NCBI GenBank assembly: GCA_028279705.1
Contig: JANQNF010000005.1
Coordinates: 2,688 to 66,687 of the forward strand
Reading direction: 5' to 3'
Origin: an archaeon
Lineage (GTDB): Archaea > Aenigmatarchaeota > Aenigmatarchaeia > QMZP01 > JAFGSV01
Length of the DNA stretch: 64,000 nt
Position 1 is the first letter of the stretch. Each line of letters begins with the position of its first letter. Positions 2,350 to 19,425 of this stretch are shown here, piece by piece. Both the position numbers and the translations under genes were made by a program. The notes beneath the pieces are model-generated. The model did no database searches and was not told the origin of the DNA. It was given only the letters and a program-made list of their open reading frames with translations.

Positions 2350-4404
2350 ATGATTTCGGTTGACACGGAAACTACCGGTCTTGACTTTTATCATGGATGC
2401 GCACCGTTCCTCGTATCCATCTGTGATGAGGATCTCCAAGTTACGACATGGCAGTTTCCGGTCAACCCTCGTACTCGCATTCCCAAGGTTACTAAGCGTG
2501 ACCGGGATGAGATAGAATCCTATCTTGACCAGGACAAGGTCTTACAGAATAGTAAGTTTGACGTCCGTGCGTTACAGTCCATAGGCATCTGTATGGATTG
2601 GGACTGGGAACGCACAGAAGACACACTTATAGCAGGACACCTAGTAGCCAGTGGTGAATCCCACGAGTTGGGAAACATGGCGTTGAAGTACCTGGGAGTT
2701 GACATCAAACCGTTGGAGGAAAACCTACGGCAAGAAGTAATTAAGGCCAGAGCTCTAGCCAAGAAAAAGTATCCTGAATGGCGGCAAGCAAAGGAAGGCG
2801 ATCCGATGATGCCAAGCATGAAAGAAACTGCTTGGAAGGGGGATATGTGGTTACCTCAAGCCTTAGCAAACATGGAGGACTTACCCGAGGATCATCCTTG
2901 GTGGCATGTGCTGCCTGAGTACAACAACGGGGACAGTTCGGTAACCCTCAAATTGTGGGAAGTACAAAAAGAAATTCTACAAGAACGTGGGTTATGGGAA
3001 ATCTACCTAGAACGTAAGAAACTACTGAAGACCACCTACGATATGGAATCTATAGGGATTACCATGAACGTAGAACGGTTGAACGAACTCAATGACAGGT
3101 ATAGAGAAGAGAGTACAAAGGCTGAACAACTGTGTTTGAAACTAGCCGACGGGCACATAGATAAACTTCCAAAAGGCGGAACCAGCAAAGCTCTACGTAG
3201 TGTTATCTTCGATCACTTCAAACTACCTGTAGTAGTGAAGTCAAAGAAGACTCAGGAACCCTCAGTCAATAAAGTAGCAATAGAGCAGTGGATAGCTACT
3301 GTTCCAACAACAGAAAAGTCCTTCCATTTTATTAAAAACCTAAGGGACAAACGCAAGCGTGACACAGCCTCAGGTTATATGGAAGGTTACCTCAAAGTAG
3401 GATTACCCCTTTATGGCCCTTGGTACACTCTATTCCCCTACCTCAATATTACCGGGACTGATACCTTACGATTCAGTAGCAGCAATCCAAATGAGCAGAA
3501 TATTAGCAAACAAGAAGGGTTCAACCTCCGATACATTTTTGGTCCGCGCCCTGGAAGAGAGTGGTGGTCCGGCGATTATAAGAACATCGAGTTGCGGTTG
3601 CCAGCCTTCGAGTGCGGCGAAACTGAAATGGTCAACCTGTTCAACAATCCCGGCGAGCCACCCTATTACGGATCCTACCATTTACTTATCTGTGACGTTC
3701 TTCACCCAAAATGGTTCGGGCAACACGGAACAGACTTCAAAAACAAGTTCGCGTCGACGTGGTATCAGTGGACCAAGAATGGCAACTTTGCTGTCCAGTA
3801 TGGAGCCGTTGAATCTTCGGGTACAGCCGACTTGGCCTACCACGTTCCGGGGGCGCAAAGGAAGATTCAAGGGCGGTTCAAAAAGATCGCGCAGTTGAAT
3901 AAGGATATGATAGCTCATGCGGATGCTCACGGATATGTCACCACAATACCTTCCAAGGGTTTTGACCGCGGATACCCGTTACAATGTACACGAACCGAAT
4001 GGGGCAGAGTCAAACCAACTATCCCATTGAACTACCACGTTCAGGGAAGTGCGATGTGGGCTATGAGCTTAGCTATGAATCGATGTGACAACTTCCTAGA
4101 GCAGTGGAACCAGTCCGAGCTAGGGATAGCCAACACCAGCCAGATAATACAAGAACAGATGGAAGATCAAGCTTACTTCATGATTATGCAAATACATGAT
4201 GAGCTGGTCTTTGACTTCCCAGCCAAGCGTAGTAAGAACTGGGATCCTAAGAATCCAAAGGCTGAGCATCTAGGAAATGCACAGTTGGTACGTGAACTCA
4301 AACAACTCATGGAGCTCTCTGGAGAAGATATGAATACTCCTCTACCGGTCGGCTTCGATTATCACCCTGACACGTGGGACGTAGGCTATGGTATCAGTTT
4401 ATGA
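2350..4404 (+). CDS. Family-A (Pol I-type) DNA polymerase with 3'-5' exonuclease domain
   Basis: N-terminal Exo I motif VDTETTGL. Pol A motif B-like K..NGNFAVQYG and motif C QIHDELVFD. 684 aa. Confidence 0.85.
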   Translation: MISVDTETTGLDFYHGCAPFLVSICDEDLQVTTWQFPVNPRTRIPKVTKRDRDEIESYLDQDKVLQNSKFDVRALQSIGICMDWDWERTEDTLIAGHLVASGESHELGNMALKYLGVDIKPLEENLRQEVIKARALAKKKYPEWRQAKEGDPMMPSMKETAWKGDMWLPQALANMEDLPEDHPWWHVLPEYNNGDSSVTLKLWEVQKEILQERGLWEIYLERKKLLKTTYDMESIGITMNVERLNELNDRYREESTKAEQLCLKLADGHIDKLPKGGTSKALRSVIFDHFKLPVVVKSKKTQEPSVNKVAIEQWIATVPTTEKSFHFIKNLRDKRKRDTASGYMEGYLKVGLPLYGPWYTLFPYLNITGTDTLRFSSSNPNEQNISKQEGFNLRYIFGPRPGREWWSGDYKNIELRLPAFECGETEMVNLFNNPGEPPYYGSYHLLICDVLHPKWFGQHGTDFKNKFASTWYQWTKNGNFAVQYGAVESSGTADLAYHVPGAQRKIQGRFKKIAQLNKDMIAHADAHGYVTTIPSKGFDRGYPLQCTRTEWGRVKPTIPLNYHVQGSAMWAMSLAMNRCDNFLEQWNQSELGIANTSQIIQEQMEDQAYFMIMQIHDELVFDFPAKRSKNWDPKNPKAEHLGNAQLVRELKQLMELSGEDMNTPLPVGFDYHPDTWDVGYGISL

Positions 4405-5275
4405 TCTGGTTGAAATGAATGATAACCTTGTTAATGAATTCATCTATTGGGCAAAGGAACGTCACAGCATACACCTTAAAAGGGAAGCTGGTAAACCTAA
4501 GCCGTGGACCAAGGACCCGATACTCCAACGGTACTTCTTCACTAACCCTTACAGGGAGAATGACAAGACTACCGTATGGTTCCGGGAAACAGTACGAGAT
4601 CCAATTGCTGCCAAGCCTCAGGTCTTCTTTTCTACTGTGTGCTTCCGTTGGTTCAACTACATCCCAACAGGACAAGTACTCCATGATCTACAACTTCTGT
4701 ATGCGTGGGATTGTGAATTAGCTATTGCAAAACTGAACGACATCCTACGATCCGGGCGCAAGGTATTCACAGGGGCGTTTACCATCAGCCCTAGCGGAAG
4801 CACCAAGCCAAAGATCCAGCGTGTATGCGAAGACTACATCCAACCAGTATGGGACGACCTGTCAAGCATCGTTGGCCAACTGTACAAGGCCGACACACTG
4901 AAACGCGCATGGCAAGTTGTATCTTCTCTCCCAGGAATGGCTGGCGGAGGATTCATGGCCTATGAAGTAGTTTCAGACCTGCGGTATACTGAGTTCCTAA
5001 GAAACGCTGAAGACATCAATCTGTGGGCTAACCCCGGTCCTGGTGCCAAGCGAGGACTCAACCGTCTAATGATGAGAGAAATCAAAAGCCCAATCAACCA
5101 ACCATTGTGGGAAGACCAGACCCAGGAACTTCTTAAGATCGTTAATAAACGTCTACCCAAAAATATGCCACGGTTTGAGATGCGTGAAATTGAACACAGT
5201 CTGTGTGAGTTTGACAAGTACCTACGGGCGAGAACCAAGTCCGGCAGAATGAAAAGGAAATACGATGGTGTTTAA
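4388..5275 (+). CDS. Hypothetical protein; possible nucleotide/DNA-base modification enzyme (aGPT-Pplase-like, tentative)
   Basis: 295 aa, overlaps the polymerase stop. Motifs ILQRYFFTNPYRENDKTT, VSDLRYT and NPGPGAKRGL recall the thymine hypermodification pyrophosphorylase-like domain. Recognised from memory only. Confidence 0.45.
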   Translation: MVSVYDLVEMNDNLVNEFIYWAKERHSIHLKREAGKPKPWTKDPILQRYFFTNPYRENDKTTVWFRETVRDPIAAKPQVFFSTVCFRWFNYIPTGQVLHDLQLLYAWDCELAIAKLNDILRSGRKVFTGAFTISPSGSTKPKIQRVCEDYIQPVWDDLSSIVGQLYKADTLKRAWQVVSSLPGMAGGGFMAYEVVSDLRYTEFLRNAEDINLWANPGPGAKRGLNRLMMREIKSPINQPLWEDQTQELLKIVNKRLPKNMPRFEMREIEHSLCEFDKYLRARTKSGRMKRKYDGV

Positions 5276-5489
5276 TTGCAGGTTCCGTGAAGGTCCGTTG
5301 GATGGTAGATTAGCAGAAGTGTCCATTACTGAACCTTTCAAGGTTGGTATGTTCATCACTGTTGAAGGATGCACCTACGAAATCCTCAATGGTGCGGCTG
5401 CTCAACACCACGAGCAGAAACAAGAAGGACATCCTAACTTGGCTGTGAGTGCTAGTTATGTTGATGATAAGAACCTTTCTGGTGTCTGA
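5265..5489 (+). CDS. Hypothetical small protein
   Basis: 74-aa ORF in a co-directional array; overlaps the upstream stop. Confidence 0.3.
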   Translation: MVFNCRFREGPLDGRLAEVSITEPFKVGMFITVEGCTYEILNGAAAQHHEQKQEGHPNLAVSASYVDDKNLSGV

Positions 5490-5808
5490 TCTTCCTTTGG
5501 AGTTGTTCTGTAAGCAGTTGTGTACGTTCAATTCTAAAAAGCTAAAGAAGAGCAGGCGTCATTCTCTTTACTTGGAAAACGTGAAATGGTACAGAGAAGA
5601 CAATGGGTTATTCACAGTGACTGTGAAATTTCTCAGAGGAGAAAAATTCACTTACCGATTTATCAAGGCCGGAGGAACGTTCAGCTATTCTCCTTTCCGT
5701 GACTGCGATCACAGCAAACTGTTGAAAGTCCTAGCAGATAACCAGAGGAAGACCCGTGAAAATATTCAGGTGGAATCAAATCAGGGAAGCCGTAGCGTAT
5801 GCGGTTGA
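5449..5808 (+). CDS. Hypothetical protein
   Basis: 119-aa ORF; start uncertain (alternative ATG at 5458). Confidence 0.3.
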   Translation: MLVMLMIRTFLVSDLPLELFCKQLCTFNSKKLKKSRRHSLYLENVKWYREDNGLFTVTVKFLRGEKFTYRFIKAGGTFSYSPFRDCDHSKLLKVLADNQRKTRENIQVESNQGSRSVCG

Positions 5809-6088
5809 AGACCCTGATAACACCGCTTTGCATTTACATTACTTCATAACGCCTACAGCTCCTGCTTGCTTCAAGAGGGATGTAGGTAGGAGATTACCGA
5901 TTGCTCACTTGTTTGGACAGGACGCAAAACTATTGGAGGCAATAGCAAGACATGCTGGAGTGAACAAAATCGTTATCGAACGTACGAACACTCCTCGCCA
6001 GCACATTGATTTGTGTGGAGCTCCTTTACGTAGAGTGCTTGAGGAGTGTGGCGAGGATATAAACAACTACAGGTTGGAGGAGGACTGA
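5756..6088 (+). CDS. Hypothetical protein
   Basis: 110-aa ORF; overlaps its neighbours; stop overlaps the next start. Confidence 0.3.
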   Translation: MKIFRWNQIREAVAYAVEDPDNTALHLHYFITPTAPACFKRDVGRRLPIAHLFGQDAKLLEAIARHAGVNKIVIERTNTPRQHIDLCGAPLRRVLEECGEDINNYRLEED

Positions 6089-7221
6089 TGAAAGTAGCCA
6101 TAGTCAATTGGCCGATTAATGACGTAGGAGGCATCAACACCTACTGCGAAAACATGATAGCAGGGTTTAGAACTTTGGGAGGGTATGAAGTGGATCTAAT
6201 CCACGCCACACCACAACTCAAGTACAACAATGCGAAACATGGTGAACGGGTGAACCAGACTACCAAGCGAAGGTTCACAATCTTGGAAGGTTATCATTTC
6301 AGTTACAACGACCAGCACGTAACCGAAGCTGTAGATGCTTTGAATACTTACGATCTCGTGATATTCTTGCATCCTAGTCCACATCCTACCAAGGCTGTGA
6401 AAGAACATCCATGTCATTTGAATTGGCAAGCCTTATACAATGAGTTGACCGTTCCTGACTTGGTAATCTTCCACGACGCCAATTGGGCGAAGACGAACTC
6501 GTGGTTTGCTGACGTTGCTGACCGGGTAGATGCAGCACTAGGAGCCCAACATATATTCTTCCCAAGTATTGAGCAGTATCCAGCCAACTGCCCAAAGACC
6601 TGGGAATACTTTCCATTGAACTTAGAGCAGATGTTAAGTGACTCAGCAGAGGAGGACAAGGTAGAACAGGGGATTCTAGCTACTCAGTGGTTAAAGTGGA
6701 AGAACCATCACAAGTTCTTACCAGTCATGCCTCAGATCAAATACCCTATCATGGTGTTTGGTAGCGGTATGGAATATCACAACCTAGCCAAGACCCCGGA
6801 GTTCGCTGAGGCTTTCAACATCGACTACACAACAGACAAGGAGTACAACCCAGACTCTCCACACGAATACCATGGATACGTAGACTATGTGTACGTCATG
6901 GTGGAGATGGCTCGGTCTACCTTTAGTATCGATCTGTCAACTAAGGGTTACACGAACATGACCCATTGGGAGCCGATGGCCTGCGAGACCCTTAATTTAA
7001 TCCACGAAGATGTACTTGCTAACGAGTACTGTGAGATCCCAGACGATTGTTGTATGACATTCAACTTTGGGAATGTTGCCGACGTCATCAACGAAACGAT
7101 GGAAAATCCTGACTGGATTGACAAGCGTGTTACCAACGCTTCCAAGTTCATTACTAAGTGTGACAACGTTCAGGTTGTCAGCCGTATCATGTCCTGGTTA
7201 AAGAAAGAAGGTGTTGTATGA
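6088..7221 (+). CDS. GT-B fold glycosyltransferase; candidate DNA (hydroxymethyl-pyrimidine) glucosyltransferase
   Basis: RBS GGAGGAGG then ATG at 6088. The N-terminus MKVAIVNWPINDVGGINTY...GGYEVDLIHA is a typical GT-B Rossmann start and resembles the T4 alpha-glucosyltransferase N-terminus (MRICIFMARGLEGCGVTKF...GHEVTLVYA). Confidence 0.5.
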   Translation: MKVAIVNWPINDVGGINTYCENMIAGFRTLGGYEVDLIHATPQLKYNNAKHGERVNQTTKRRFTILEGYHFSYNDQHVTEAVDALNTYDLVIFLHPSPHPTKAVKEHPCHLNWQALYNELTVPDLVIFHDANWAKTNSWFADVADRVDAALGAQHIFFPSIEQYPANCPKTWEYFPLNLEQMLSDSAEEDKVEQGILATQWLKWKNHHKFLPVMPQIKYPIMVFGSGMEYHNLAKTPEFAEAFNIDYTTDKEYNPDSPHEYHGYVDYVYVMVEMARSTFSIDLSTKGYTNMTHWEPMACETLNLIHEDVLANEYCEIPDDCCMTFNFGNVADVINETMENPDWIDKRVTNASKFITKCDNVQVVSRIMSWLKKEGVV

Positions 7222-7622
7222 CTCACTATCATGTTACAAGCCTAATCCTAGGAGCGATTCTCACTGTTGGGATTTTCACAGGCTGTTGTGAACAGACTAA
7301 GATGGAACGTTCCCTCGAATACGAAGAAGGGATCAAAAGTCACAACACAGGTATGTCACTTCACGAGAATCCTTACAGCGATGCTGTTGGGAGAAAGGAA
7401 CGGGAACATAAAGCTTACTGGACAAACGGTTGGCTGGACGCCGAGCTCGAAGAACAAGAACACGACGAAGAGTACGAGTCAGAAAGAAACGTAGCTATCC
7501 TCGCTACCATACGTTTGAAACGGTTGGAGAAAGCAGAAGAACGTATTGAAGAGTTGGAAGCCCGTATCAACACTATGCAAGCGTTACAGGAGGAGTTCTA
7601 TGCAACGTTCCGTAACCGTTGA
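7218..7622 (+). CDS. Hypothetical protein, possible lipoprotein with C-terminal coiled coil
   Basis: MTHYHVTSLILGAILTVGIFTGCC has a signal-like segment with Cys. C-terminal acidic coiled coil. Confidence 0.45.
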   Translation: MTHYHVTSLILGAILTVGIFTGCCEQTKMERSLEYEEGIKSHNTGMSLHENPYSDAVGRKEREHKAYWTNGWLDAELEEQEHDEEYESERNVAILATIRLKRLEKAEERIEELEARINTMQALQEEFYATFRNR

Positions 7623-7797
7623 TTATATGTACGATGACAACGAGTGTGATCTTTTTGACAAACTCAAAGAAGTATTGGCAAGCATCGGAGTGGAGGTCGA
7701 GATGGTTGACCCCGATCCACCAGATCTGGAATCGTTAACCATGGAATTCACAAACACACTAGTCGAGGACAACCAGCAGATCGAGCCAGTCGGATGA
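7600..7797 (+). CDS. Hypothetical small acidic protein
   Basis: RBS AGGAGG 7 nt upstream of ATG 7600. 65 aa. Stop overlaps the next start. Confidence 0.35.
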   Translation: MQRSVTVDYMYDDNECDLFDKLKEVLASIGVEVEMVDPDPPDLESLTMEFTNTLVEDNQQIEPVG

Positions 7798-8690
7798 GAT
7801 TATTCAACACCCTATCCTTGGAAATCAACGCACAGTGTAATCGCAAGTGCAAGTTCTGTCCTGTAGCTTACAACACTAGACCTGATGAACGGATGGCTAT
7901 CGGGTTGGTCAACAAAGCAGCAGCGGAGCTTGCTCACCTTAACTACAAAGGGAGGATCGAACTCTACATATACAACGAACCGCTCAAGGACAAAACCTAT
8001 CTGCGACAAGTCACAAAGCTGTTGCGCAAGCACGTCCCTAAGTGTACTCTGATGATTGCCACTAACGGTGACTACATCCGGGACTACACAGACATCATGG
8101 AGATGTATGAGTGGGGGATGAACCAAGTCCTCATTAACTGCTACAGTCCTGGTCTGTATGAACGCCGACAAGTATGGTTCAGTGGATTACCTGCTGAAGT
8201 ACGTAGACACAAGAGCGTGTACGACCAAGGCTTCAAAGGCAAGTGCATACAGATGCTAGACAAGTCTTCTCCCCAGAAGTTTGGTACGGGAATCTTTTCC
8301 TTGACAAACCGTGCAGGTAATATAGACCAGTTCTTACCTGTAGTAGAAGAACCTTTGCAGAAGATGTGTGTGCGCCCGTTCAGGTTACTTAACATTAACT
8401 GGCTTGGACAAGCCTTAGTGTGCTGCCAAGATTACCACGCAGACGTTCCTATCGGGAATTTACAGGACAACACATTAGTAGAACTCTGGAATCATCCGGT
8501 GCTCAATACCTACCGAAAGCATTTATCCGAGAAGGACAGAACTTTACCTCTGTGCAACCAGTGCGACTGTCACTCCGGTGCGTATCCGGGAAATGTGGAC
8601 AAGAGTTTTGGAAAACCAGCCAGTCGCCATGAAATTGCTAACATCCATGCGACCAACGTAAGGAGAAGAAATCGTGCATCTAAAGTTTAG
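7794..8690 (+). CDS. Radical SAM enzyme with C-terminal SPASM/twitch-like Cys cluster
   Basis: CNRKCKFC (CxxxCxxC) at residues 15-22. C-terminal CCQDY...CNQCDC cluster. Start overlaps the upstream stop. Confidence 0.7.
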   Translation: MRLFNTLSLEINAQCNRKCKFCPVAYNTRPDERMAIGLVNKAAAELAHLNYKGRIELYIYNEPLKDKTYLRQVTKLLRKHVPKCTLMIATNGDYIRDYTDIMEMYEWGMNQVLINCYSPGLYERRQVWFSGLPAEVRRHKSVYDQGFKGKCIQMLDKSSPQKFGTGIFSLTNRAGNIDQFLPVVEEPLQKMCVRPFRLLNINWLGQALVCCQDYHADVPIGNLQDNTLVELWNHPVLNTYRKHLSEKDRTLPLCNQCDCHSGAYPGNVDKSFGKPASRHEIANIHATNVRRRNRASKV

Positions 8691-9825
8691 AAACGTTAAC
8701 GAAGCTTTTGATTTCATACTCAAGGGAGTCACAGACGGTAGTATTCCAACGATCGATTCAGGGTCTAGAAACGGAGATGTTGTTCAGATCCCTGAAGTAT
8801 TGACGATCACCTACCTACGTCCTTGGGAGCGAGTTCTGTTTAACAGCGGAAGGGATTGCAATCCGTTCTTTCACCTGTACGAAGCTATGTGGATGCTTGC
8901 CGGTCGGGAGGACGTAGCGTCGCTTGAGTACTTCAACAGCCAGATGGCTCAGTACAGTGACGATGGTAAAGTATTCAACGGTGCTTACGGTAACCGATGG
9001 CGCAACTGGAAAGTACCAAGATGGACTCAAGGACATAATATGTCCGATCCGGACCTACTCTATTGGGAAGGAATAGACCAACTAGAAGTCATTGCGAAGA
9101 ATCTGACCCGGGATAATAACAGCCGACGAGAGGTTCTAGAGATGTGGAGCGTTCACAGCGACCTCCTACGCAACCGTAGTAGTAAGGATGTCTGCTGTAA
9201 CCTTGTAGTCACGTTCCAGATCGTTGATGCGTTCGGGGCTAAGAAGTTGGACATGTCCGTGTTCAATCGTAGCAACGATACGATCTGGGGACTGCTCGGT
9301 GCCAACGTAGTACATTTCAGCTTTCTGCACGAGTGGATGGCTTCTATGTGTGGGGTCAAGATGGGCTTGTACAACCAGATCAGTGTCAATGCGCACTTCT
9401 ACGCTGACAAGTTCACACCCGAAAAATGGATTGGGGATACGACGCCGGATTTGTATCTGGATGCTCTTCCAATAAACCTCACACCCCTTATTGAGGATAA
9501 GAACCAGTGGGAGCGGGACGTACTGACGTTCTGTGAAAATCCATACAACTCAGACAACCCTGAACTGCCGTTCACCCGTAGTCTGAGTAAGAAGTTGTTG
9601 TACGACGAACCGTTCTTTACCAAGGTTGCTATTCCTGCTTGTAAAGCATTCCATGCGCACAAGAATCGGAAGTATGAAGATGCTTTCCGGTTTGCTTCAA
9701 CCATCGAATCAACAGATTGGCAGTTCGTGTGCACAGAATGGTTGATGAAGCGGGAAAGATGGTACAAAGAAAGGATCCGTAAGTCCGGCAACCCATACGC
9801 TAAACTTTCACAACAAGATCAATGA
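8674..9825 (+). CDS. Thymidylate synthase-family enzyme, probably a deoxypyrimidylate hydroxymethylase or methylase, with a ~120-aa C-terminal extension
   Basis: FHLYEAMWMLAG, NGAYGNRWRNW and VCCNLVVTFQ align with ThyA motifs ELLWFLKG, GPVYGKQWRAW and PCHAFFQFYV. The conserved substrate Asn is present in GLLGANVV. 383 aa versus ~264 for ThyA. Confidence 0.8.
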   Translation: MHLKFRNVNEAFDFILKGVTDGSIPTIDSGSRNGDVVQIPEVLTITYLRPWERVLFNSGRDCNPFFHLYEAMWMLAGREDVASLEYFNSQMAQYSDDGKVFNGAYGNRWRNWKVPRWTQGHNMSDPDLLYWEGIDQLEVIAKNLTRDNNSRREVLEMWSVHSDLLRNRSSKDVCCNLVVTFQIVDAFGAKKLDMSVFNRSNDTIWGLLGANVVHFSFLHEWMASMCGVKMGLYNQISVNAHFYADKFTPEKWIGDTTPDLYLDALPINLTPLIEDKNQWERDVLTFCENPYNSDNPELPFTRSLSKKLLYDEPFFTKVAIPACKAFHAHKNRKYEDAFRFASTIESTDWQFVCTEWLMKRERWYKERIRKSGNPYAKLSQQDQ

Positions 9826-10060
9826 GATGATTATCTTCTTGATAGTAATCTGTTGCCAGCTTGCAATAATCGCTTACTTGTTATACGAGATTGATAAATC
9901 AATAAACAGTAAACCCTGAGAGGATGAATAATGCCCTTAACCTCGGACCAGCAACGGGAATCTAAAGCCAAACTCGAAGTCTGGCAAGAACTTTCCAAAG
10001 CTTTGAAGAATCTCAACAAATTCCTAGACCTACTTATCAAAGAAGCGGAGAAGAAAGCTA

Positions 10061-11098
10061 ATGACAACTAGAACCGAACCAGACCTGCGACACCTAGACT
10101 TCCTAGAAAGGGTAGCAGGGCTCGACGTGAACCAAGTTGAAGAGAAGGACCGCAGCTACGGAGGTAGTTGGAAGCGTCGTGGCGGAGTCGGCGTCTTTAT
10201 GATGCTTGCTCGCAAGTGGGACCGGCTTGAAAACATGATGGCCAATCCTCAGGCTCTGGTAGCTGGTCCTAAACATCCAACCAAAGAACAAGGCGAACAC
10301 GAGTGCTTCCTATGGGACAAGTACGATATCATAGGGGCCATAGAATCCCAGATCACTAGAGGTCAAGTTCCTGGTGATGCCCCAGACGGTACGGTCCTGG
10401 CCGAAGTCCGCGACCTGCGCCGTTACCTGTTACTGTTGGAGGCCGAGCTACTCAGCCGCGACCATACTCAAAACGCCAATCCCCATGTCGTTCGAGCTAT
10501 GGAAAGATTAGAAAAGGAAGGCACTGTTGTAGGGGAGGATGCTGTCACCCTGATGCAAAGTCAAGCTGTTGGGAGAAGGGTAGAAGCAGTTCAAGCTTCA
10601 GGATCTAGAACCCATCAGACTGATCATCAATATCGGGTTCAGCAATTCATGGAAAAAGCAGGTCAGGAGATTCCTGACCAACCTACCATCCCTGACTTCG
10701 AAGTACGCAAGCTACGTGCAAGGCTGATCTTCGAAGAAGCAATGGAAACCATTGAGGCGATGGGAATTTCCATACGCCATCACATAGTCCACTCTAATAA
10801 CGAGATTTGGTTGGACTCATTCCATAGCACCTACCGGGTCGAGTTTCTCAATAAGGGGGAATGCGTTATCGAGGACGTTGCCGACGGTTGTGCGGATCTG
10901 TCTGTTGTCAACGAAGGTACGTTACTGGCCTTCGGTATCCGGGACAACCCACTACTACAAGAAGTGGACGAAGCCAACCTACGCAAGTTCCGGGGGGATG
11001 CTCACAGGGACGAAGGGGGTAAGTGGATCAAGCCTTCGGACTGGCAACCACCTAACATCGCCAAAGTATTGGAGGACCAAGGATATGACCCTACCTGA
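10061..11098 (+). CDS. Tandem MazG-like all-alpha NTP pyrophosphohydrolase
   Basis: Two MazG-like segments (SYGGSWKRRGGVGVFMMLARKWDRLE; EVRKLRARLIFEEAMETIEAM...EDVADGCADLSVV with the E..AD..L signature). Confidence 0.55.
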   Translation: MTTRTEPDLRHLDFLERVAGLDVNQVEEKDRSYGGSWKRRGGVGVFMMLARKWDRLENMMANPQALVAGPKHPTKEQGEHECFLWDKYDIIGAIESQITRGQVPGDAPDGTVLAEVRDLRRYLLLLEAELLSRDHTQNANPHVVRAMERLEKEGTVVGEDAVTLMQSQAVGRRVEAVQASGSRTHQTDHQYRVQQFMEKAGQEIPDQPTIPDFEVRKLRARLIFEEAMETIEAMGISIRHHIVHSNNEIWLDSFHSTYRVEFLNKGECVIEDVADGCADLSVVNEGTLLAFGIRDNPLLQEVDEANLRKFRGDAHRDEGGKWIKPSDWQPPNIAKVLEDQGYDPT

Positions 11099-11288
11099 TT
11101 CAAGTGATTTCGATCAAGCAGAAGCTGGAATGCGGATGATAGCAGGTTCCTGGGCAACCATGTATCTAGCTATTGTAGCTAAGGGAGTTCCTGCTGATCA
11201 CGCTATCCAGATGATAGTTGCTTACATCACAGCAATCAACAGCAAACCAAGTACCCCAGAACCACCCAAGTCGGAGGAAGATGAATGA
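11085..11288 (+). CDS. Hypothetical small protein
   Basis: 68-aa ORF bridging the MazG stop and the primase start with overlaps. Confidence 0.3.
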   Translation: MTLPDSSDFDQAEAGMRMIAGSWATMYLAIVAKGVPADHAIQMIVAYITAINSKPSTPEPPKSEEDE

Positions 11289-13480
11289 AGCTCAAGGATG
11301 CGCCAATCAAGTTACGACCGTACCTGTTTCACGGAGTAGAGATGACGTGGCAGGGCAACGACGATGCAATAGCAACCTGTCCATTCTGTACAAAGGAACA
11401 GAAGTACCACATCAGTCAAGCAACAGGCCAGTATCACTGCAAGGTCTGTGGCAAGAAGGGAAACGTATACACGTTCCTCAAACACTTTCACCAAGCTTGT
11501 GATGAGGTCACTGACCCCGACCAGCTACAGGACTTAGCTGAAGACCGAGGGGTCTCGGTTGAAGTCCTGGAGGAGTGGGGAGTGGTTATGTCTTATTTAC
11601 GCCAGGACTGGCTAGTCCCAACTTATAACGAAGAGGGGAAGGTAAATAACCTATATCGTTATACAGAGTTGGACGGTAAGATGAGGCTGCTCTCCACTCC
11701 TACTTTGAGTCACGGTATATTCGGTCTACAACATTACGATCCAACCAAACAGATGGTTGACATTTGTGAAGGACCGTGGGATGGGATGGCTTGGTACGAA
11801 GTGCTACGACGGTACAAGGAATCCCCTAGCGGGCTTCACCGCTGTATCGAAGTAGGAGATTCCTTGTGGGCAACGACCAACGTCATTGCTGTCCCAGGTT
11901 GTGAGGTGTTCCGTGACACTTGGATGCCGCTGTTCAAAGATAAGGACGTGAACTTCATCTATGACAACGACCATCCCCGTAATCTACCTAGTGGGCGCAT
12001 GGTTCCGCCTCCAAGTTACTCAGGTATGGAACGGGCTTGCAACATCTTGTGTCGTGAAGAAACTGCCAACCTCAGTATCATCCATTGGGGTACAGGAACT
12101 CACGACCCACTACGCAAGGACGGGTACGACCTGCGAGATCTTATTAACGACCGCGGATTACCAGCCGTGATTCACACGGTCAGGTCTATGTTATCTTCTC
12201 CCCCAGAAGACTGGGTGGATCCTGAGAATCCAAGCGTGTCTACAGGTGAGTTGCTAGAACCTACTCCTTGTGACAACTTTGTAGAACTCAGGGAGTACTG
12301 GAAGAAGGCACTCAAGTGGACCGATTCATTGGACACCACGTTGGCTGTGATGCTGGCTACAGCCGCGAGTACCAAGTTGCAAGGAGACCAGCTATGGCTC
12401 CGGGTAGTTGGTCCTCCGGGCAGTGCCAAGTCTACGCTCTGCGAAGCGTTAAGTGTAGATAAAGAACACGTACACTCTATCAGTATCCAGAAAGGGTTCC
12501 ACAGTGGTTACCGAGGATCAGGGGCACAGAAGGGGAAAGACTCAAGTCTCATACCCCGAATGGATGGTAAGACCGTCATCACTAAGGACGGGGATACCTT
12601 GCTCAACAGCGCTAATCGTGATCAAACACTTAGCGAGATGCGGGACTTCTACGACGGAACAAGTCGTGCAGAATATAAGAACTTTAAGAAGAGTTCATAT
12701 TCTGGGTTGCGTATCACTTTCATCCTTGCAGGGACGCGATCTCTCTATCGATTGAACAAGTCCTTCTTGGGTGATAGGTTCGTGGACTGTATTATCTACG
12801 ATCGCAAGACAGACTACGACCCTGAGCTCGAGGAGGAAATCCTAGACCGAGCAGCACTGAACGCTCTCAAACGTGTACGGCAGGAAAGTGATGGGACTGC
12901 TGAAAACACTTCAGACCCTAGATTGATTGATGCTATGAAGTATACTGCTGGATATGTTCAGTGGTTGCGCGAGCACGTACAGGAGCGGATCAACAAGGTC
13001 GAATGTCCTGATGATGTACTCCGCCGGTGCCGTGAACTCGGTGTGCTTACCAGTTACATGCGGGCTAGACCGGACAAGGAGCTTGACGATGAAGAACAAG
13101 AAGTCGAGTTGGCCACTAGACTCACCAGTCAATACGTTAGGTTGGCGAACTGTCTTGCCGTTGTACTTAACCGTGATGCCGTGGACAATGTGGTCATGGA
13201 CCAAGTCGTTAAGGTGGCCACTGATACGAGTAGAGGACTCAACCTTAGGATTACCGAGTTGCTCTACTACGCAGAAGACATGGGTATGGAAGCGTCCCGA
13301 ATCGCCCTTCGTCTTAACAAGGGTGATAGTACCGTGCGAAGAGCTTTGAAGTTCTTGCGGGAAATTGAGGTAGTCAAACCAATGTCAGTCAATAACAACA
13401 GTGGGAGTCGTGGTCGCAACCGGCATATGTGGACTCTCACTGATCAAGTCCGTCATTTATTTGAGGCATTACAAGTATGA
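11285..13480 (+). CDS. DNA primase-helicase (CHC2-type zinc finger + TOPRIM primase fused to a P-loop NTPase)
   Basis: CPFC...H...CKVCG zinc finger. TOPRIM motifs DICEGPWDG and YDNDHP. Walker A VVGPPGSAKST. 731 aa. Confidence 0.8.
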   Translation: MKLKDAPIKLRPYLFHGVEMTWQGNDDAIATCPFCTKEQKYHISQATGQYHCKVCGKKGNVYTFLKHFHQACDEVTDPDQLQDLAEDRGVSVEVLEEWGVVMSYLRQDWLVPTYNEEGKVNNLYRYTELDGKMRLLSTPTLSHGIFGLQHYDPTKQMVDICEGPWDGMAWYEVLRRYKESPSGLHRCIEVGDSLWATTNVIAVPGCEVFRDTWMPLFKDKDVNFIYDNDHPRNLPSGRMVPPPSYSGMERACNILCREETANLSIIHWGTGTHDPLRKDGYDLRDLINDRGLPAVIHTVRSMLSSPPEDWVDPENPSVSTGELLEPTPCDNFVELREYWKKALKWTDSLDTTLAVMLATAASTKLQGDQLWLRVVGPPGSAKSTLCEALSVDKEHVHSISIQKGFHSGYRGSGAQKGKDSSLIPRMDGKTVITKDGDTLLNSANRDQTLSEMRDFYDGTSRAEYKNFKKSSYSGLRITFILAGTRSLYRLNKSFLGDRFVDCIIYDRKTDYDPELEEEILDRAALNALKRVRQESDGTAENTSDPRLIDAMKYTAGYVQWLREHVQERINKVECPDDVLRRCRELGVLTSYMRARPDKELDDEEQEVELATRLTSQYVRLANCLAVVLNRDAVDNVVMDQVVKVATDTSRGLNLRITELLYYAEDMGMEASRIALRLNKGDSTVRRALKFLREIEVVKPMSVNNNSGSRGRNRHMWTLTDQVRHLFEALQV

Positions 13481-14139: not shown

Positions 14140-14598
14140 ATGGATAGCTTTCACGGTCTTAACGGGTTCAAGTTGGATTACTATCCGGCGTTTCAACCAC
14201 AGCAATATGCAAACTACACCCCTTCCTCAGCCTCATCTAGTGAGTTCTATGAATCGATGGAGAAGGCTAGAAGACGTATGCAAGAGTTGAAAGCAGGTGA
14301 GAGATACTACATTGAGAGCCACTGCTTCATGCTTCTTAATGAATCTACTATGAGATCCTGGCAGCTACGCATCCATCATCTTACACCAGAACCTAGATGT
14401 GCCTGTCCATTTAATTTCCTGAACGAATACGACAGATGGTTCGAGTGGCAGAAGTTGGTTCAGTTTGAAAGGATGAACACCTTGGAAGCAGCAGTTAAGG
14501 TGACCGGAGTTACCAGGATCTGGGTTATCGAACCTCCCAGGTTCGATCCCCTGTCCGTGATGAGACAACCTTTATGGAGCCCTAAGAATGATGACTGA
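14140..14598 (+). CDS. Hypothetical protein
   Basis: 152-aa ORF; ATGA overlap with the next gene. Confidence 0.45.
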   Translation: MDSFHGLNGFKLDYYPAFQPQQYANYTPSSASSSEFYESMEKARRRMQELKAGERYYIESHCFMLLNESTMRSWQLRIHHLTPEPRCACPFNFLNEYDRWFEWQKLVQFERMNTLEAAVKVTGVTRIWVIEPPRFDPLSVMRQPLWSPKNDD

Positions 14599-15082
14599 CT
14601 GTGAAATCCTTGCAGTCACTGGTCACAGACCTCCAAAGCTAGGGGGGTATGATCTTCTCCTATTTGATTGCCTAGTGCGCTTTGCTGTTACAGAACTCAA
14701 GCAAATCCAACCAGAGTACGTCCTTACAGGTATGGCGTTAGGTTGGGACCAAGCAATAGCGGAAGCCTGTGACAGGATTGGTATCCCGTTCATAGCCTGC
14801 TTACCGCACGACAATCCAGGAAGTAACTGGCCAGACCATAGCCGTGAGTACCTAGACCAGTTACTGAACAAAGCACATGACATCTGGTGGTGTCCGGGAG
14901 GACCGTACGAACCACAGAAGATGCAGATACGTAACGAAACAATGGTGGATGAGTGTGACACGTTGCTTGCCCTGTACGACGGAGAGCCACAAGGCGGAAC
15001 TCATAACTGTGTGAACTACGCACAAATGGAAAGCAACTGCCTAATCATCAACTGTTGGGAACGATGGGAACCCTTTATCTAA
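14588..15082 (+). CDS. SLOG-superfamily Rossmann protein (YpsA/DUF1273- or DprA-like)
   Basis: N-terminal ILAVTGHRPPKLGGYD matches the YpsA-type start (vTGyr..eLgif). A glycine-rich turn MALGWDQAIAEA follows. Confidence 0.4.
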   Translation: MMTDCEILAVTGHRPPKLGGYDLLLFDCLVRFAVTELKQIQPEYVLTGMALGWDQAIAEACDRIGIPFIACLPHDNPGSNWPDHSREYLDQLLNKAHDIWWCPGGPYEPQKMQIRNETMVDECDTLLALYDGEPQGGTHNCVNYAQMESNCLIINCWERWEPFI

Positions 15083-15102
15083 TTAACACTGAGGAAATAA
15101 AT

Positions 15103-15552
15103 ATGGGAATGATAACCGTGAGACTACCCGATACCAAGCACGAAGGTATCAAACTGGCAGCGGAGGACGCTGGCCTAAGTATGAATACTTGGTGCGTTCA
15201 AAAACTCTGCCAAGCCGCAGGAAAGTTTGTGCCTCCTGAACCCCAAGAGATCATTCTAGAAGGTGGTCCTCTGCACAACACTCTTCACCAGACCGAAGAC
15301 ATTGTCACTCATCTGGTACTAGACGAACCAGATCACTTGTACCAATTGAGGGCTGATGAAATTGCTAAGATCAGTCCCGTCCCACCGTTACGAAACCAGT
15401 ACACCTACAAAAGAAGTGGAGAACGCAAGCACAGGTATCCAGCAGAAGGTACAAGAGTTCTAACCCCCATTTTCAAATTCATCTCAGTGAACGTTATTAC
15501 CAATGATGCAGATCTTTCCCCACAAAGTAGTGAACAAGATTCACTGCGGTAA
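15103..15552 (+). CDS. Ribbon-helix-helix (HicB/Arc-like) DNA-binding protein with C-terminal extension
   Basis: RBS GAGGAA then ATG 15103. ITVRLPDTKHEGIKLAAEDAGLSMNTWCVQKL is an RHH signature. Confidence 0.5.
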   Translation: MGMITVRLPDTKHEGIKLAAEDAGLSMNTWCVQKLCQAAGKFVPPEPQEIILEGGPLHNTLHQTEDIVTHLVLDEPDHLYQLRADEIAKISPVPPLRNQYTYKRSGERKHRYPAEGTRVLTPIFKFISVNVITNDADLSPQSSEQDSLR

Positions 15553-16363
15553 CTGTGCCCACGTACTCCGTAAGATGGTCCCAGACCAAGTCATTGATCT
15601 CACAGTCACCAGCCCACCGTATGACGATCTCCGTGCTTACGAGGGGTTCAAGTTTGACTGGCGTAGTATCATCAAGCAACTATGGCGAATTACCAAGATC
15701 GGCGGAGTTGTGGTCTGGGTCGTGGCTGATCAAGTAGAAGACGGTAGTGAGACTGGAACCAGTTTCCAACAAGCTATCTTCTTCCAAGCTGTAGGCTTCA
15801 GACTCCACGACACTATGATCTATCGTCGGGCTCCCAGGTTCCCAGACGTTATCCGCTATCCTCAGTGGTTTGAGTATATGTTCGTGTTCAGTAAGGGACC
15901 ACCCAAAACGTTCAATCCTATTTGTGACCGCAAGAACACTACAGCCGGGACTAAGGGAGGCAACAGACGCCGCGATCCTAAGACCGGTGAAGTTGTAGGC
16001 ACAGGCCAAGAGAAGAACGTTCGTAAGGACTACGGAGCACGTGAGAATATATGGACTTACCTAGCAGGTAGTGCCGAGAGTGAAGACCTGGGACATCCAG
16101 CTAAGTTCCCTGATCAGCTTGCTATGGATCACATCCTAAGCTGGTCTGATCCTGGCGACCTTGTCCTAGATCCTATGTGTGGTAGCGGCACGACCTGTGC
16201 TATGGCCAAGAAAGCCGGGCGCGAATACGTAGGTATTGACATTAGTGAGAACTACTGCCAGATTGCTCGTGGTACAGTGGAGTCTCACCAACTAGCTGCC
16301 GAGTTCGAGACCGGCACACCTTCCTCCCAGAGAAAGCCAATAGGCGGAAAAGGATTACTATGA
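15503..16363 (+). CDS. Beta-class DNA methyltransferase (N6-adenine or N4-cytosine)
   Basis: Motif IV DLTVTSPPY precedes motif I DPMCGSGTT (permuted beta-class order). Confidence 0.8.
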   Translation: MMQIFPHKVVNKIHCGNCAHVLRKMVPDQVIDLTVTSPPYDDLRAYEGFKFDWRSIIKQLWRITKIGGVVVWVVADQVEDGSETGTSFQQAIFFQAVGFRLHDTMIYRRAPRFPDVIRYPQWFEYMFVFSKGPPKTFNPICDRKNTTAGTKGGNRRRDPKTGEVVGTGQEKNVRKDYGARENIWTYLAGSAESEDLGHPAKFPDQLAMDHILSWSDPGDLVLDPMCGSGTTCAMAKKAGREYVGIDISENYCQIARGTVESHQLAAEFETGTPSSQRKPIGGKGLL

Positions 16364-19154: not shown

Positions 19155-19423
19155 TTCAAATCCTTTGCTCTATAAACTTTGCCTTTGATTTCCAACCGTA
19201 CGATAGCCCGAAGGTTCACGTTACGGTACTCTTGGAGGTCTGTATCCCATACGGTTAACAGATCCTTATCTTCAGGATCATAGGGCTGTCCTTGCCCTGT
19301 GACCCCTTCCTTAACACCAAGCTGGCATGACATCCGTCTAAGCCTCCCGTTGGTGCGTTTTCTAAACGTACATACGAAAGGCTCATTACCAGCTTCCTTC
19401 CTGATAAATTCACCTACGTTCAT
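19151..19423 (-). CDS. Hypothetical protein
   Basis: 90 aa; ATGA overlap. Confidence 0.5.
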   Translation of the reverse strand: MNVGEFIRKEAGNEPFVCTFRKRTNGRLRRMSCQLGVKEGVTGQGQPYDPEDKDLLTVWDTDLQEYRNVNLRAIVRLEIKGKVYRAKDLK

Positions 19424-19425
19424 TT

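What the first reader, a model, noticed from the sequence alone, without database searches (positions are those of the whole stretch)
8674..9825. Thymidylate-synthase homolog with altered catalytic-site dipeptide and a ~120-aa C-terminal extension
Core TS motifs are present and the substrate-specifying Asn is retained (GLLGANVV), which points to a dUMP-type substrate rather than dCMP. The canonical P-C-H catalytic stretch reads V-C-C-N here. The protein is 383 aa against ~264 for ThyA. The last ~120 residues (from about the ADKFTPEKW segment) have no TS counterpart and could dock partner enzymes. This is typical of hydroxymethylases and unusual for housekeeping ThyA.
Basis: partly seen in the sequence, partly recalled or inferred. 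Interest (0 to 1): 0.7.

Follow-up and report, generated by a model that had tools for sequence, protein, structure and literature searches.

The report
Phage dUMP hydroxymethylase, not ThyA
This phage gene encodes a thymidylate-synthase-fold enzyme that most likely makes 5-hydroxymethyl-dUMP, the precursor phages use to chemically disguise thymine in their DNA; it is an ordinary member of a large, already described family.

Summary
The ORF at 8674-9825 (+, 383 aa, GTG start with a good Shine-Dalgarno) is real. It is a thymidylate-synthase (TS) superfamily protein but not a ThyA: it scores far below all NCBIfam ThyA cut-offs.

It carries the hydroxymethylase pattern: Asp172 where ThyA has Leu143 (T4 dCMP hydroxymethylase has Asp145), Asn176 for His147, and no Trp80. 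The ThyA C-terminal lid is replaced by a five-helix domain. Asn211 (ThyA Asn177), Ser200 and Arg151 point to dUMP as substrate.

Its closest phage relatives are the predicted dUMP hydroxymethyltransferases of M6/YuA-like Pseudomonas phages (37% identity, full length). The best solved relative is the CMP hydroxymethylase MilA, which also has a five-helix C-terminal domain.

The gene sits in the published arrangement for thymidine hypermodification: family-A DNA polymerase, 5-hmdU DNA kinase, a variable cassette, the TS homolog, a MazG-like pyrophosphatase and a primase.

The V-C-C-N motif and the long C-terminus are family norms (CCN in 205 of 256 relatives; median length 386 aa), not peculiarities of this gene.

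Verdict: a new member of a known kind. The more unusual feature is the neighbouring cassette, a T4-AGT-like glycosyltransferase plus a BtrN-like radical-SAM enzyme with no amino-acid:DNA transferase.

The parts
8674..9825 (+). Complete CDS of the TS-superfamily protein (383 aa, GTG start, stop included); predicted dUMP hydroxymethylase
   Evidence: ORF list; Pfam PF00303 E=1.4e-19; PHROG 5131 E=2.8e-94 over residues 3-368; the identical protein is in the public collection, unnamed (P0001)
8660..8665 (+). Shine-Dalgarno AAGGAG, 8 nt upstream of the GTG start
   Evidence: Sequence read; the start overlaps the stop of the upstream radical-SAM gene (8690) by 17 nt, which suggests co-translation
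8674..9405 (+). TS-fold catalytic core (residues 1-244), with R32, E70, Y105, R151/R152, R199, S200, D202, H241 and Y243 at ThyA ligand-binding positions
   Evidence: Residue table; HMMER alignments to E. coli ThyA and MilA; AF2 pLDDT mostly above 90
9187..9201 (+). Active-site strand D172-V-C174-C175-N176. C175 is the nucleophile (Ec C146), D172 aligns with T4 dCH D145 / Ec L143, and N176 aligns with Ec H147
   Evidence: D172, C175 and N176 are invariant in 63 aligned relatives; CCN in 205/256, PCN in 23, ACN in 14
9289..9306 (+). G206-L-L-G-A-N211 loop; N211 aligns with ThyA N177, the uracil/cytosine specificity residue
   Evidence: G-x-x-G-A-N in 120/120 nearest homologs; the role of N177 is described in PMC8670742
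9406..9822 (+). C-terminal all-helical domain (residues 245-383; helices 249-253, 276-288, 313-330, 334-342, 347-371; disordered loop 292-306). It replaces the ThyA C-terminal lid
   Evidence: AF2 model; MilA aligns over 358-370 columns versus about 255 for ThyA; invariant E312, F314, P321, A337, W356, R360; no profile-level relative in PDB or Pfam
4388..5275 (+). Context: 5-hmdU DNA kinase (5-HMUDK)
   Evidence: Pfam PF18723 E=9.4e-51; 36% identical to M6 gp55
2350..4404 (+). Context: family-A DNA polymerase with 3'-5' exonuclease
   Evidence: Pfam and PHROG hits
6088..7221 (+). Context: GT-B glycosyltransferase-like protein resembling T4 alpha-glucosyltransferase
   Evidence: AF2 pLDDT 95.8; Foldseek best hits are T4 AGT 1xv5/1y6f/1y8z, E=8.6e-14, TMq 0.70-0.73
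7794..8690 (+). Context: radical-SAM/SPASM protein, BtrN-like
   Evidence: Pfam SPASM E=8e-12; PDB BtrN 4m7s E=1.8e-22
10061..11098 (+). Context: MazG-like nucleotide pyrophosphohydrolase (C-terminal half); candidate dUTP/dTTP pyrophosphatase supplying dUMP
   Evidence: Pfam PRA-PH E=1e-6; PHROG 671 E=5e-25; PDB DR2231 E=3e-8; a MazG gene follows the TS homolog in relatives

Best explanation
The gene encodes a phage dUMP hydroxymethylase (dUMP hydroxymethyltransferase), probably a homodimer with the thymidylate-synthase fold.

Inferred mechanism, by analogy with ThyA and T4 dCMP hydroxymethylase:
1. Cys175 adds to C6 of dUMP. Asn211 reads the uracil face. Ser200, Arg32, Arg151/152, Arg199, His241 and Tyr243 hold the deoxyribose phosphate.
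2. The methylene of 5,10-methylene-tetrahydrofolate is transferred to C5, using the Glu70, Asp202 and Tyr105 network.
3. The exocyclic-methylene intermediate is hydrated by water instead of being reduced by hydride from the folate. This gives 5-hydroxymethyl-dUMP plus tetrahydrofolate.

Hydration rather than reduction is attributed to a more open, polar active site: Asp172 in place of ThyA Leu143, Asn176 in place of His147, no Trp80, and no C-terminal lid. The product is then phosphorylated to 5-hmdUTP and incorporated by the phage's own family-A polymerase. In DNA it is further modified by the neighbouring 5-hmdU DNA kinase, glycosyltransferase-like protein and radical-SAM enzyme. The C-terminal five-helix domain is most likely a structural domain, as in MilA.

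Shown here: fold, residue identities, family placement and gene context. Inferred: substrate, product and every chemical step.
For: - Family: Pfam TS domain E=1.4e-19. Full-length match to PHROG 5131 at 2.8e-94, against 6e-29 for the general TS PHROG 160.
- Not ThyA: all seven NCBIfam ThyA equivalog models score 24-65 bits against cut-offs of 108-427.
- Closest proteins: M6 gp58-type TS homologs at 37% identity over 95% of the length, several annotated deoxyuridylate hydroxymethyltransferase. The SPO1-type gp29 dUMP hydroxymethyltransferase gives 36% identity over the core, E=1e-43, against 24% and 8e-14 for E. coli ThyA. An NJ tree groups the query with M6-, ViI- and SPO1-type enzymes, away from T4 gp42 and ThyA.
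- Best solved relative by sequence and by fold is the hydroxymethylase MilA.
- Residues: D172 = T4 D145 = Ec L143; Y94 = T4 V85 = Ec W83; W80 has no counterpart. PMC6400193 identifies these positions as controlling solvent access and hydride transfer versus hydroxylation.
- N176 replaces H147 in all dUMP hydroxymethylase references and all relatives.
- N211 = N177, which gives uracil specificity (PMC8670742). S200 and R151 are retained, where the ribo-specific MilA has Ala176 and Lys133 (PMC5175136).
- Context: 5-HMUDK at 4388-5275 (E=9e-51), PolA upstream and MazG-like downstream. The same order occurs in four related contigs. PMC5889632 and PMC8989533 report that 5-HMUDK co-occurs with a dUMP hydroxymethyltransferase and a phage polymerase.
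- The neighbouring AGT-like glycosyltransferase also implies a hydroxymethyl-pyrimidine in the DNA.
- This is the only TS-like gene in the window.
Against: - No enzymology exists for this protein. In the papers I could search, I found no direct assay of any M6-clade member. Activity is established for SPO1 gp29, and in vivo for phage SH-Ab 15599 (cited in PMC5175136, PMC13458397).
- The role of the Asp at the L143 position comes from a cytosine-specific enzyme and is partly hypothesis in that paper.
- I could not inspect model coordinates, so the placement of N211 (which sits after a one-residue insertion relative to ThyA), D172 and the C-terminal domain relative to the active site rests on alignments.
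- No dCMP deaminase, dCTP deaminase or dNMP kinase was found in the window with the probes used.
- The tree contains a single bona fide ThyA.
Confidence: 0.85

Rival explanations
1. It is a genuine thymidylate synthase that makes dTMP for phage replication, with a decorative C-terminal domain.
For: The TS fold and all nucleotide- and folate-binding residues (E70, Y105, D202, N211, R199, H241, Y243) are kept. Most public records label relatives 'thymidylate synthase'.
Against: Scores are far below every ThyA equivalog cut-off. The positions linked to hydride transfer and solvent exclusion are changed (L143 to D, H147 to N, W80 absent, W83 to Y, no C-terminal lid; PMC6400193). The gene sits next to a kinase whose substrate is 5-hmdU in DNA. 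It clusters with dUMP hydroxymethylases.
Confidence: 0.05
2. It is a cytosine-nucleotide enzyme, either a dCMP/CMP hydroxymethylase like T4 gp42 or MilA, or a dCMP methylase.
For: MilA is the best solved match by sequence and fold. Some relatives are annotated 'dCMP hydroxymethylase'.
Against: The specificity position is Asn (N211), invariant in the family, whereas T4 gp42 (D179) and MilA have Asp (PMC8670742). Residue +1 after the catalytic Cys is Asn as in dUMP hydroxymethylases, not Thr as in T4 gp42 and MilA. The neighbouring kinase is a 5-hmdU kinase. S200 and R151 favour deoxyribose (PMC5175136).
Confidence: 0.03
3. It is a TS-fold enzyme with chemistry that departs from plain hydration. 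It might release a mixture of dTMP and 5-hmdUMP, or trap the exocyclic methylene with a nucleophile other than water. The conserved vicinal Cys174 or the conserved C-terminal domain might take part, for example by channelling to partner enzymes.
For: The Cys-Cys dyad is conserved in about 80% of relatives and its role is unknown. The C-terminal domain has six invariant residues and no known relatives by sequence. M6-type phages replace only part of their thymidine (PMC8989533).
Against: Relatives with Pro or Ala instead of Cys174 sit in the same gene context (M6), so the first Cys is not essential. The MilA C-terminal domain is remote from the active site (PMC5175136). No evidence here calls for a non-water nucleophile.
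Confidence: 0.07

Closest known systems
M6/YuA-like (Yuavirus) phage TS homolog, e.g. Pseudomonas phage M6 gp58 (YP_001294566); predicted dUMP hydroxymethyltransferase of the 5-NedU pathway
   Same: 37% identity over residues 3-367, including the C-terminal helical domain. Same PHROG 5131. Same KD-x-x-C-N-L and G-x-x-G-A-N motifs. Also encoded near a 5-HMUDK (M6 gp55) and a family-A polymerase.
   Different: M6 has Pro before the catalytic Cys where this protein has Cys. M6 lacks the ~17-residue beta-hairpin insertion at about 113-131. M6's tailoring genes (aGPT-Pplase, PLP enzyme, SPL-like radical SAM) have no homologs in the window.
SPO1-type gp29 deoxyuridylate hydroxymethylase (here Bacillus phage Goe9 gp29, QMV48439), the biochemically characterised dUMP hydroxymethylase lineage
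   Same: Same length (383 aa). 36% identity over the catalytic core, E=1e-43. Same D-x-x-C-N and G-x-x-G-A-N motifs. Same predicted reaction.
   Different: The C-terminal regions align only weakly: BLAST stops at residue 275 and the PHROG is different. SPO1 leaves 5-hmdU unmodified in its DNA, whereas this phage encodes downstream modification enzymes.
MilA, CMP 5-hydroxymethylase of Streptomyces rimofaciens (PDB 5B6D, 5JNH, 5JP9)
   Same: Best solved match by sequence (E=1.3e-14) and by fold (E=1.5e-16, 366 columns, TMt 0.81). Asp three residues before the catalytic Cys. An extra C-terminal domain of five helices in place of the ThyA lid (PMC5175136).
   Different: MilA has Asp at the specificity position and Ala176/Lys133 for ribose, whereas this protein has Asn211, Ser200 and Arg151. 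MilA has Thr after the catalytic Cys where this protein has Asn. The C-terminal domains show no profile-level sequence relationship. MilA is a bacterial secondary-metabolism enzyme, not a phage DNA-precursor enzyme.
T4 gp42 dCMP hydroxymethylase (PDB 1B5E and the ternary complex in PMC6400193)
   Same: Hydroxymethylase chemistry. Asp145 corresponds to D172, and the solvent-gating Trp is absent. No ThyA C-terminal lid (PMC6400193).
   Different: T4 gp42 is cytosine-specific (D179). It is only 246 aa with no C-terminal helical domain. Sequence similarity is very low (E=0.036 pairwise).
E. coli ThyA (thymidylate synthase, PF00303 / NCBIfam TIGR03284 and the PRK01827 models)
   Same: Same fold over about 255 columns (TMt about 0.72). 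Catalytic Cys, E58, Y94, R126/R127, R166, S167, D169, N177, H207 and Y209 are all conserved.
   Different: L143 becomes D, P145 becomes C, H147 becomes N, W80 is absent and W83 becomes Y. The C-terminal lid is replaced by a helical domain. Scores fall far below the equivalog cut-offs. The predicted product is hydroxymethyl rather than methyl.

Membership tests
Thymidylate synthase superfamily (Pfam PF00303) | HMM score above the Pfam gathering threshold | tested here: met
   70.8 bits against a cut-off of 24.3, E=1.4e-19
Thymidylate synthase superfamily (Pfam PF00303) | Catalytic Cys nucleophile, phosphate-binding Arg residues, the Glu/Tyr/Asp catalytic network, and the TS fold | tested here: met
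   C175, R32, R151/R152, R199, E70, Y105 and D202 align with Ec C146, R21, R126/R127, R166, E58, Y94 and D169. AF2 model pLDDT 91.3 with TS/MilA as top folds
Bona fide ThyA (dTMP-forming thymidylate synthase; NCBIfam equivalogs) | Score at or above the curated equivalog cut-off | tested here: not met
   Best is 65 bits against 174.55 (TIGR03283). The others score 24-51 bits against cut-offs of 108-427
Bona fide ThyA (dTMP-forming thymidylate synthase; NCBIfam equivalogs) | Residues that exclude solvent and support hydride transfer: Leu143, Trp80/Trp83, His147, and a C-terminal tail that closes over the folate | tested here: not met
   D172, no W80 counterpart, Y94 and N176. The C-terminus is a five-helix domain. 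The roles of these residues are from PMC6400193 and PMC5175136
Pyrimidine nucleotide hydroxymethylases (T4 gp42, MilA, SPO1 gp29 type) | Polar Asp at the position of T4 dCH Asp145 (three residues before the nucleophile), and loss of the gating Trp | tested here: met
   D172 is invariant in 63 relatives and present in M6-, SPO1- and ViI-type enzymes, T4 gp42 and MilA
Pyrimidine nucleotide hydroxymethylases (T4 gp42, MilA, SPO1 gp29 type) | The product is the 5-hydroxymethyl nucleotide and tetrahydrofolate, not the methyl nucleotide and dihydrofolate | not testable with these tools
   Requires an enzyme assay
dUMP-specific hydroxymethylase (as opposed to dCMP/CMP) | Asn, not Asp, at the ThyA N177 specificity position | tested here: met
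   N211, within G-x-x-G-A-N found in 120/120 homologs. Rule from PMC8670742. The position follows a one-residue insertion, so the structural equivalence is inferred from alignment
dUMP-specific hydroxymethylase (as opposed to dCMP/CMP) | Deoxyribose-preferring Ser and Arg (ThyA S167, R126), in contrast to MilA Ala176 and Lys133 | tested here: met
   S200 and R151 (PMC5175136)
dUMP-specific hydroxymethylase (as opposed to dCMP/CMP) | Clusters with characterised dUMP hydroxymethylases rather than with ThyA or dCMP hydroxymethylase | tested here: met
   NJ tree and pairwise scores. Sampling of ThyA was minimal, with only one sequence
5-hmdU-based thymidine hypermodification gene cluster (Lee/Weigele 2018, 2021) | 5-hmdU DNA kinase encoded nearby, together with a phage DNA polymerase | tested here: met
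   PF18723 E=9.4e-51 at 4388-5275 and PolA at 2350-4404. Same order in L007-L010
5-hmdU-based thymidine hypermodification gene cluster (Lee/Weigele 2018, 2021) | An amino-acid:DNA transferase (AADT / aGPT-Pplase) that displaces the phosphate | tested here: not met
   No Pfam ADDT hit in any cassette ORF. tblastn with two ADDT and three TAGT proteins and with M6 gp51 found nothing. A very divergent transferase cannot be excluded

The most novel reading that the evidence does not exclude
The enzyme itself is conventional, but the 5-hmdU it supplies may feed an uncharacterised, sugar-based thymidine hypermodification. In this window, and in a set of related metagenomic phages, the cassette between the 5-hmdU DNA kinase and the TS homolog holds no amino-acid:DNA transferase. 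It holds a T4-alpha-glucosyltransferase-like GT-B enzyme and a BtrN-like radical-SAM/SPASM enzyme, and relatives add a TET-associated glycosyltransferase. This could yield a base-J-like glycosylated or phospho-glycosylated hydroxymethyluracil whose sugar is oxidised by radical chemistry. Within the enzyme, the conserved Cys-Cys dyad and the conserved C-terminal domain might have regulatory or docking roles.
Probability: 0.35. Interest if true: 0.65.

Novelty: new member of a known kind. Interest (0 to 1): 0.27.

Why it matters
For the gene itself the result is mainly a correct annotation. Public records call this family 'thymidylate synthase', or leave it unnamed, while the evidence points to dUMP hydroxymethylase. 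That flags the phage as one whose DNA probably carries modified thymidine. Such DNA resists restriction enzymes and is harder to sequence or clone.

The residue set compiled here separates dUMP hydroxymethylases from ThyA in metagenomes: Asp at the ThyA L143 position, Cys-Asn at the nucleophile, G-x-x-G-A-N, and a helical C-terminal domain in place of the ThyA lid.

The wider interest lies next door. A kinase, an AGT-like glycosyltransferase and a BtrN-like radical-SAM enzyme, with no amino-acid transferase, form a combination that none of the thymidine-hypermodification papers I could read describes. It may specify a new DNA base.

Tried and rejected
- Nucleotide search of 7500-11500 against 50,697 phage records found no match, so the genome is not a close relative of any cultured phage.
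- A profile of the C-terminal domain alone (A4) against PDB found only noise (imelysin E=0.43, TINF2 E=0.81) and did not find MilA. The single sequence against Pfam at E<=10 found nothing. Homology of this domain with MilA's helices is therefore not shown by sequence, only by the full-length fold alignment.
- tblastn with TAGT and ADDT proteins from related contigs and with M6 gp51, gp52 and gp53 found no hit in the window. I had suspected that a disrupted TAGT gene lay in the 5275-6088 gap. The three-frame translation shows no similarity, so I dropped that idea.
- tblastn with a dCMP deaminase, dCTP deaminase, NT5C, NUDIX, and MazG proteins from relatives found no hit.
- BLASTP of the 377-aa neighbour against the 357-aa protein at the same position in L008 was not significant, although both show glycosyltransferase features.
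- The promoter/terminator scan of 4000-11500 gave counts at or below shuffled expectation and no + strand terminator, so it adds nothing beyond compatibility with co-transcription.
- The 130-aa and shorter ORFs on the opposite strand inside the gene were ignored as by-products of the coding frame.
- Iyer et al. 2013 (PMC3763556) could not be read.
- I considered that the first Cys (C174) might be the nucleophile. I rejected this because only C175 is universal.
Full report
**1. The observation**

The window has an ORF at 8674-9825 on the + strand, 383 aa, starting with GTG. An AAGGAG Shine-Dalgarno lies 8 nt upstream. The alignment of 63 relatives starts at the same residue with the same N-terminal consensus, so the start is credible. 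It overlaps the stop of the upstream gene by 17 nt. Similarity to thymidylate synthase (TS) is far beyond chance: Pfam PF00303 at E=1.4e-19 and PHROG 5131 at E=2.8e-94 over residues 3-368. The identical protein is already in public collections (NCBI and Logan), unnamed, on a ~74.8-kb metagenomic contig.

**2. What kind of TS-fold protein it is**

It is not a ThyA. All seven NCBIfam ThyA equivalog models score 24-65 bits against cut-offs of 108-427.

- The best solved relative by sequence is the CMP hydroxymethylase MilA (E=1.3e-14), ahead of E. coli ThyA (about 3e-8).
- The closest phage proteins are the TS homologs of M6/YuA-like Pseudomonas phages and Bordetella FP1/CN2. They show 37% identity over 95% of the length, and several are annotated deoxyuridylate hydroxymethyltransferase.
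- In pairwise BLAST, M6 gp58 gives 229 bits, SPO1-type gp29 145, the ViI-type enzyme 100, E. coli ThyA 59 and T4 gp42 23.5.
- A distance tree puts the query with the M6-, ViI- and SPO1-type enzymes, away from T4 gp42 and ThyA. Only one ThyA was included, so this tree is indicative only.
- The family is large: 919 hits at E<=1e-5 in the 90% clusters, and 1,412 clusters at 50% identity with E<=1e-30.

**3. Residue-level reading (consistent)**

Kept from ThyA:

| This protein | E. coli ThyA |
|---|---|
| C175 | C146 (nucleophile) |
| E70 | E58 |
| Y105 | Y94 |
| R32 | R21 |
| R151/R152 | R126/R127 |
| R199, S200, D202 | R166, S167, D169 |
| N211 | N177 |
| H241, Y243 | H207, Y209 |

Changed from ThyA:

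| This protein | E. coli ThyA |
|---|---|
| D172 | L143 |
| C174 | P145 |
| N176 | H147 |
| no counterpart | W80 |
| Y94 | W83 |

The T4 dCMP hydroxymethylase ternary-complex study identifies the ThyA gating Trp and Leu143 as controlling solvent access for hydride transfer. It notes that T4 has Val85 and Asp145 there, and proposes that Asp145 helps rotate the pterin and attract the water that hydrates the exocyclic methylene (PMC6400193). D172 occupies that Asp position. It is invariant in 63 relatives and present in all hydroxymethylase references, including MilA.

Asn at the N177 position specifies uracil, and Asp there specifies cytosine (PMC8670742). N211 lies in a G-x-x-G-A-N loop found in 120/120 nearest homologs. 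MilA's ribose preference depends on Ala176 and Lys133 in place of the Ser and Arg of TS and T4 dCH (PMC5175136). This protein keeps S200 and R151. Together these residues predict dUMP as substrate and hydroxymethyl as product.

**4. The 'V-C-C-N' motif**

Cys-Asn is universal in the clade and is shared by M6 (P-C-N), SPO1-type (P-C-N) and ViI-type (I-C-N) enzymes. T4 gp42 and MilA have C-T, and ThyA has C-H. The additional Cys before the nucleophile occurs in 111 of the 120 nearest homologs and in 205 of 256 fetched relatives. Pro occurs in 23 and Ala in 14. So it is a conserved majority state, not a peculiarity or an error. Because only the second Cys is universal, C175 is the nucleophile. 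The role of C174 is unknown.

**5. The C-terminal region**

AlphaFold2 with a 63-sequence alignment gives pLDDT 91.3 and pTM 0.91. After the last core strand (240-243) come five helices (249-253, 276-288, 313-330, 334-342, 347-371) and one disordered loop (292-306).

Foldseek against the PDB puts MilA first (E=1.5e-16, 358-370 aligned columns, TMt about 0.8). ThyA structures align over only about 255 columns. [quoted passage not shown] Truncating it gives insoluble protein. ThyA instead has a short C-terminal segment that closes over the folate, and T4 dCH lacks both (PMC5175136).

The tail here therefore replaces the ThyA lid (about 55 residues) with a helical domain (about 138 residues). Long C-termini are normal for dUMP hydroxymethylases: SPO1-type gp29 is 383 aa, the ViI-type enzyme 352 aa and M6 gp58 351 aa, and the median of 256 relatives is 386 aa.

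A profile of the C-terminal domain alone finds nothing in PDB or Pfam. The link to MilA's domain is therefore fold-level only. The domain has six invariant residues. A role beyond folding is possible but untested.

**6. Gene context**

The surrounding genes, all on the + strand, are:

- family-A DNA polymerase, 2350-4404
- 5-hmdU DNA kinase, 4388-5275 (Pfam PF18723, E=9.4e-51; 36% identical to M6 gp55)
- small ORFs
- a 377-aa protein, 6088-7221
- a 134-aa ORF
- a radical-SAM/SPASM protein, 7794-8690
- the TS homolog
- a MazG-like pyrophosphohydrolase, 10061-11098, whose C-terminal half resembles DR2231
- a primase, 11285-13480

Four related contigs show the same frame: PolA, 5-HMUDK, a variable cassette, the TS homolog, then MazG or NUDIX and a primase. 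This is the arrangement described for thymidine-hypermodifying phages, in which 5-HMUDK co-occurs with a dUMP hydroxymethyltransferase and the phage polymerase (PMC5889632, PMC8989533). In that pathway dUMP hydroxymethylase makes 5-hmdUMP, which is incorporated as 5-hmdU and then modified in the DNA. This is the only TS-like gene in the window.

**7. The cassette (outside the finding's coordinates)**

Among relatives of this TS homolog there are two cassette types.

- The published type has an amino-acid:DNA transferase (Pfam ADDT) plus an FAD, PLP or acetyltransferase enzyme (L007, L009).
- A second type has a TET-associated glycosyltransferase (TAGT), a ~360-380-aa protein and a radical-SAM/SPASM enzyme (L008, L010, L011).

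The window belongs to the second type but lacks TAGT and ADDT altogether. Its 377-aa protein has no hit in Pfam, PHROGs or NCBIfam, and none by PDB sequence search. It models at pLDDT 95.8, and its best structural matches are T4 alpha-glucosyltransferase entries, some of them crystallised with HMU-containing DNA. These score E=8.6e-14 and TMq 0.70-0.73, ahead of GT4 enzymes. The radical-SAM protein is most similar to BtrN, a radical-SAM dehydrogenase (E=1.8e-22). It is 26% identical to the radical-SAM/SPASM enzyme of L008 and unrelated to M6's SPL-like isomerase.

An association of GT-B-like enzymes with phage TS homologs has been noted in a metagenomic survey (bioRxiv 10.1101/2023.12.21.572611). 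Phospho-sugar thymidine modifications exist in SP-15-like phages (PMC12686479). I found no description of a 5-HMUDK, AGT-like and BtrN-like combination. What it makes is open. It reinforces the conclusion that the TS homolog supplies a hydroxymethyl pyrimidine.

**8. Verdict**

The features it found striking are family norms, and the family is large and already described. The gene is a new, unnamed member of the known dUMP hydroxymethylase kind, with confidence about 0.85. The residual uncertainty comes from the absence of any assay and from my inability to inspect model coordinates. Interest for the gene itself is low to moderate, and the neighbouring cassette deserves separate follow-up.

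Noticed in passing
window 6088-7221 (+): A 377-aa protein with no hit in Pfam, PHROGs or NCBIfam, and none by PDB sequence search. Its high-confidence model (pLDDT 95.8) best matches T4 alpha-glucosyltransferase, the DNA hydroxymethyl-pyrimidine glucosyltransferase (E=8.6e-14, TMq 0.70-0.73). 46 metagenomic homologs exist, usually next to a 5-HMUDK.
   Followed up: partly
window 7794-8690 (+): A radical-SAM/SPASM protein (CNRKCKFC cluster motif) most similar to the radical-SAM dehydrogenase BtrN (E=1.8e-22). It is unlike the SPL-like radical-SAM isomerase of phage M6. Homologs recur in the same cassette position in related contigs L008 and L010.
   Followed up: partly
window 4388-8690 (+): The hypermodification cassette has a 5-hmdU DNA kinase but no detectable amino-acid:DNA transferase (ADDT) or TET-associated glycosyltransferase (TAGT). 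Relatives have one or the other. What uses the kinase's phosphorylated intermediate here is unexplained.
   Followed up: partly
window 10061-11098 (+): A 345-aa protein whose C-terminal half is MazG-like (PHROG 671; PDB DR2231, E=3e-8). Its N-terminal ~185 residues match nothing. It is a candidate dUTP/dTTP pyrophosphatase feeding dUMP to the hydroxymethylase, and a MazG gene follows the TS homolog in relatives.
   Followed up: partly
window 9193-9198 (+), codons C174-C175: A vicinal Cys-Cys at the active site is conserved in about 80% of 256 relatives. Cultured-phage homologs (M6, SPO1 type) have Pro-Cys. The function of the extra Cys is unknown.
   Followed up: partly
window 14588-16363 (+): A YpsA/SLOG-family protein (14588-15082), a HicB-like protein (15055-15552) and an N6/N4 DNA methyltransferase (15503-16363, PF01555 E=2e-33). 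The last is a second, independent DNA-modification function in the same early region.
   Followed up: no
window 16360-17199 (+): A 279-aa ORF with only a very weak, sub-threshold hit to YfbR-like 5'-deoxynucleotidase (E=0.0095). If real, it could be the dTMP-depleting nucleotidase of the pathway.
   Followed up: no
window 18759-33399 (- strand block): A block of minus-strand genes with a marked negative GC skew. It includes a UvrD-like helicase (23309-25168), and most of the other ORFs match no Pfam family.
   Followed up: no
L002 1285-1488 (just upstream of, and cut by, the window start); also L011 2036-2239: A CsrA-family protein gene is encoded in this phage contig and again in a related contig carrying the same glycosyltransferase family.
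   Followed up: no
window 9010-9066 (+), residues ~113-131 of the TS homolog: A ~17-residue beta-hairpin insertion (PRWTQGHNMSDPDLLYWEG; strands 112-118 and 128-134 in the model). It is absent from M6 gp58 and ThyA, and of variable length among relatives.
   Followed up: no
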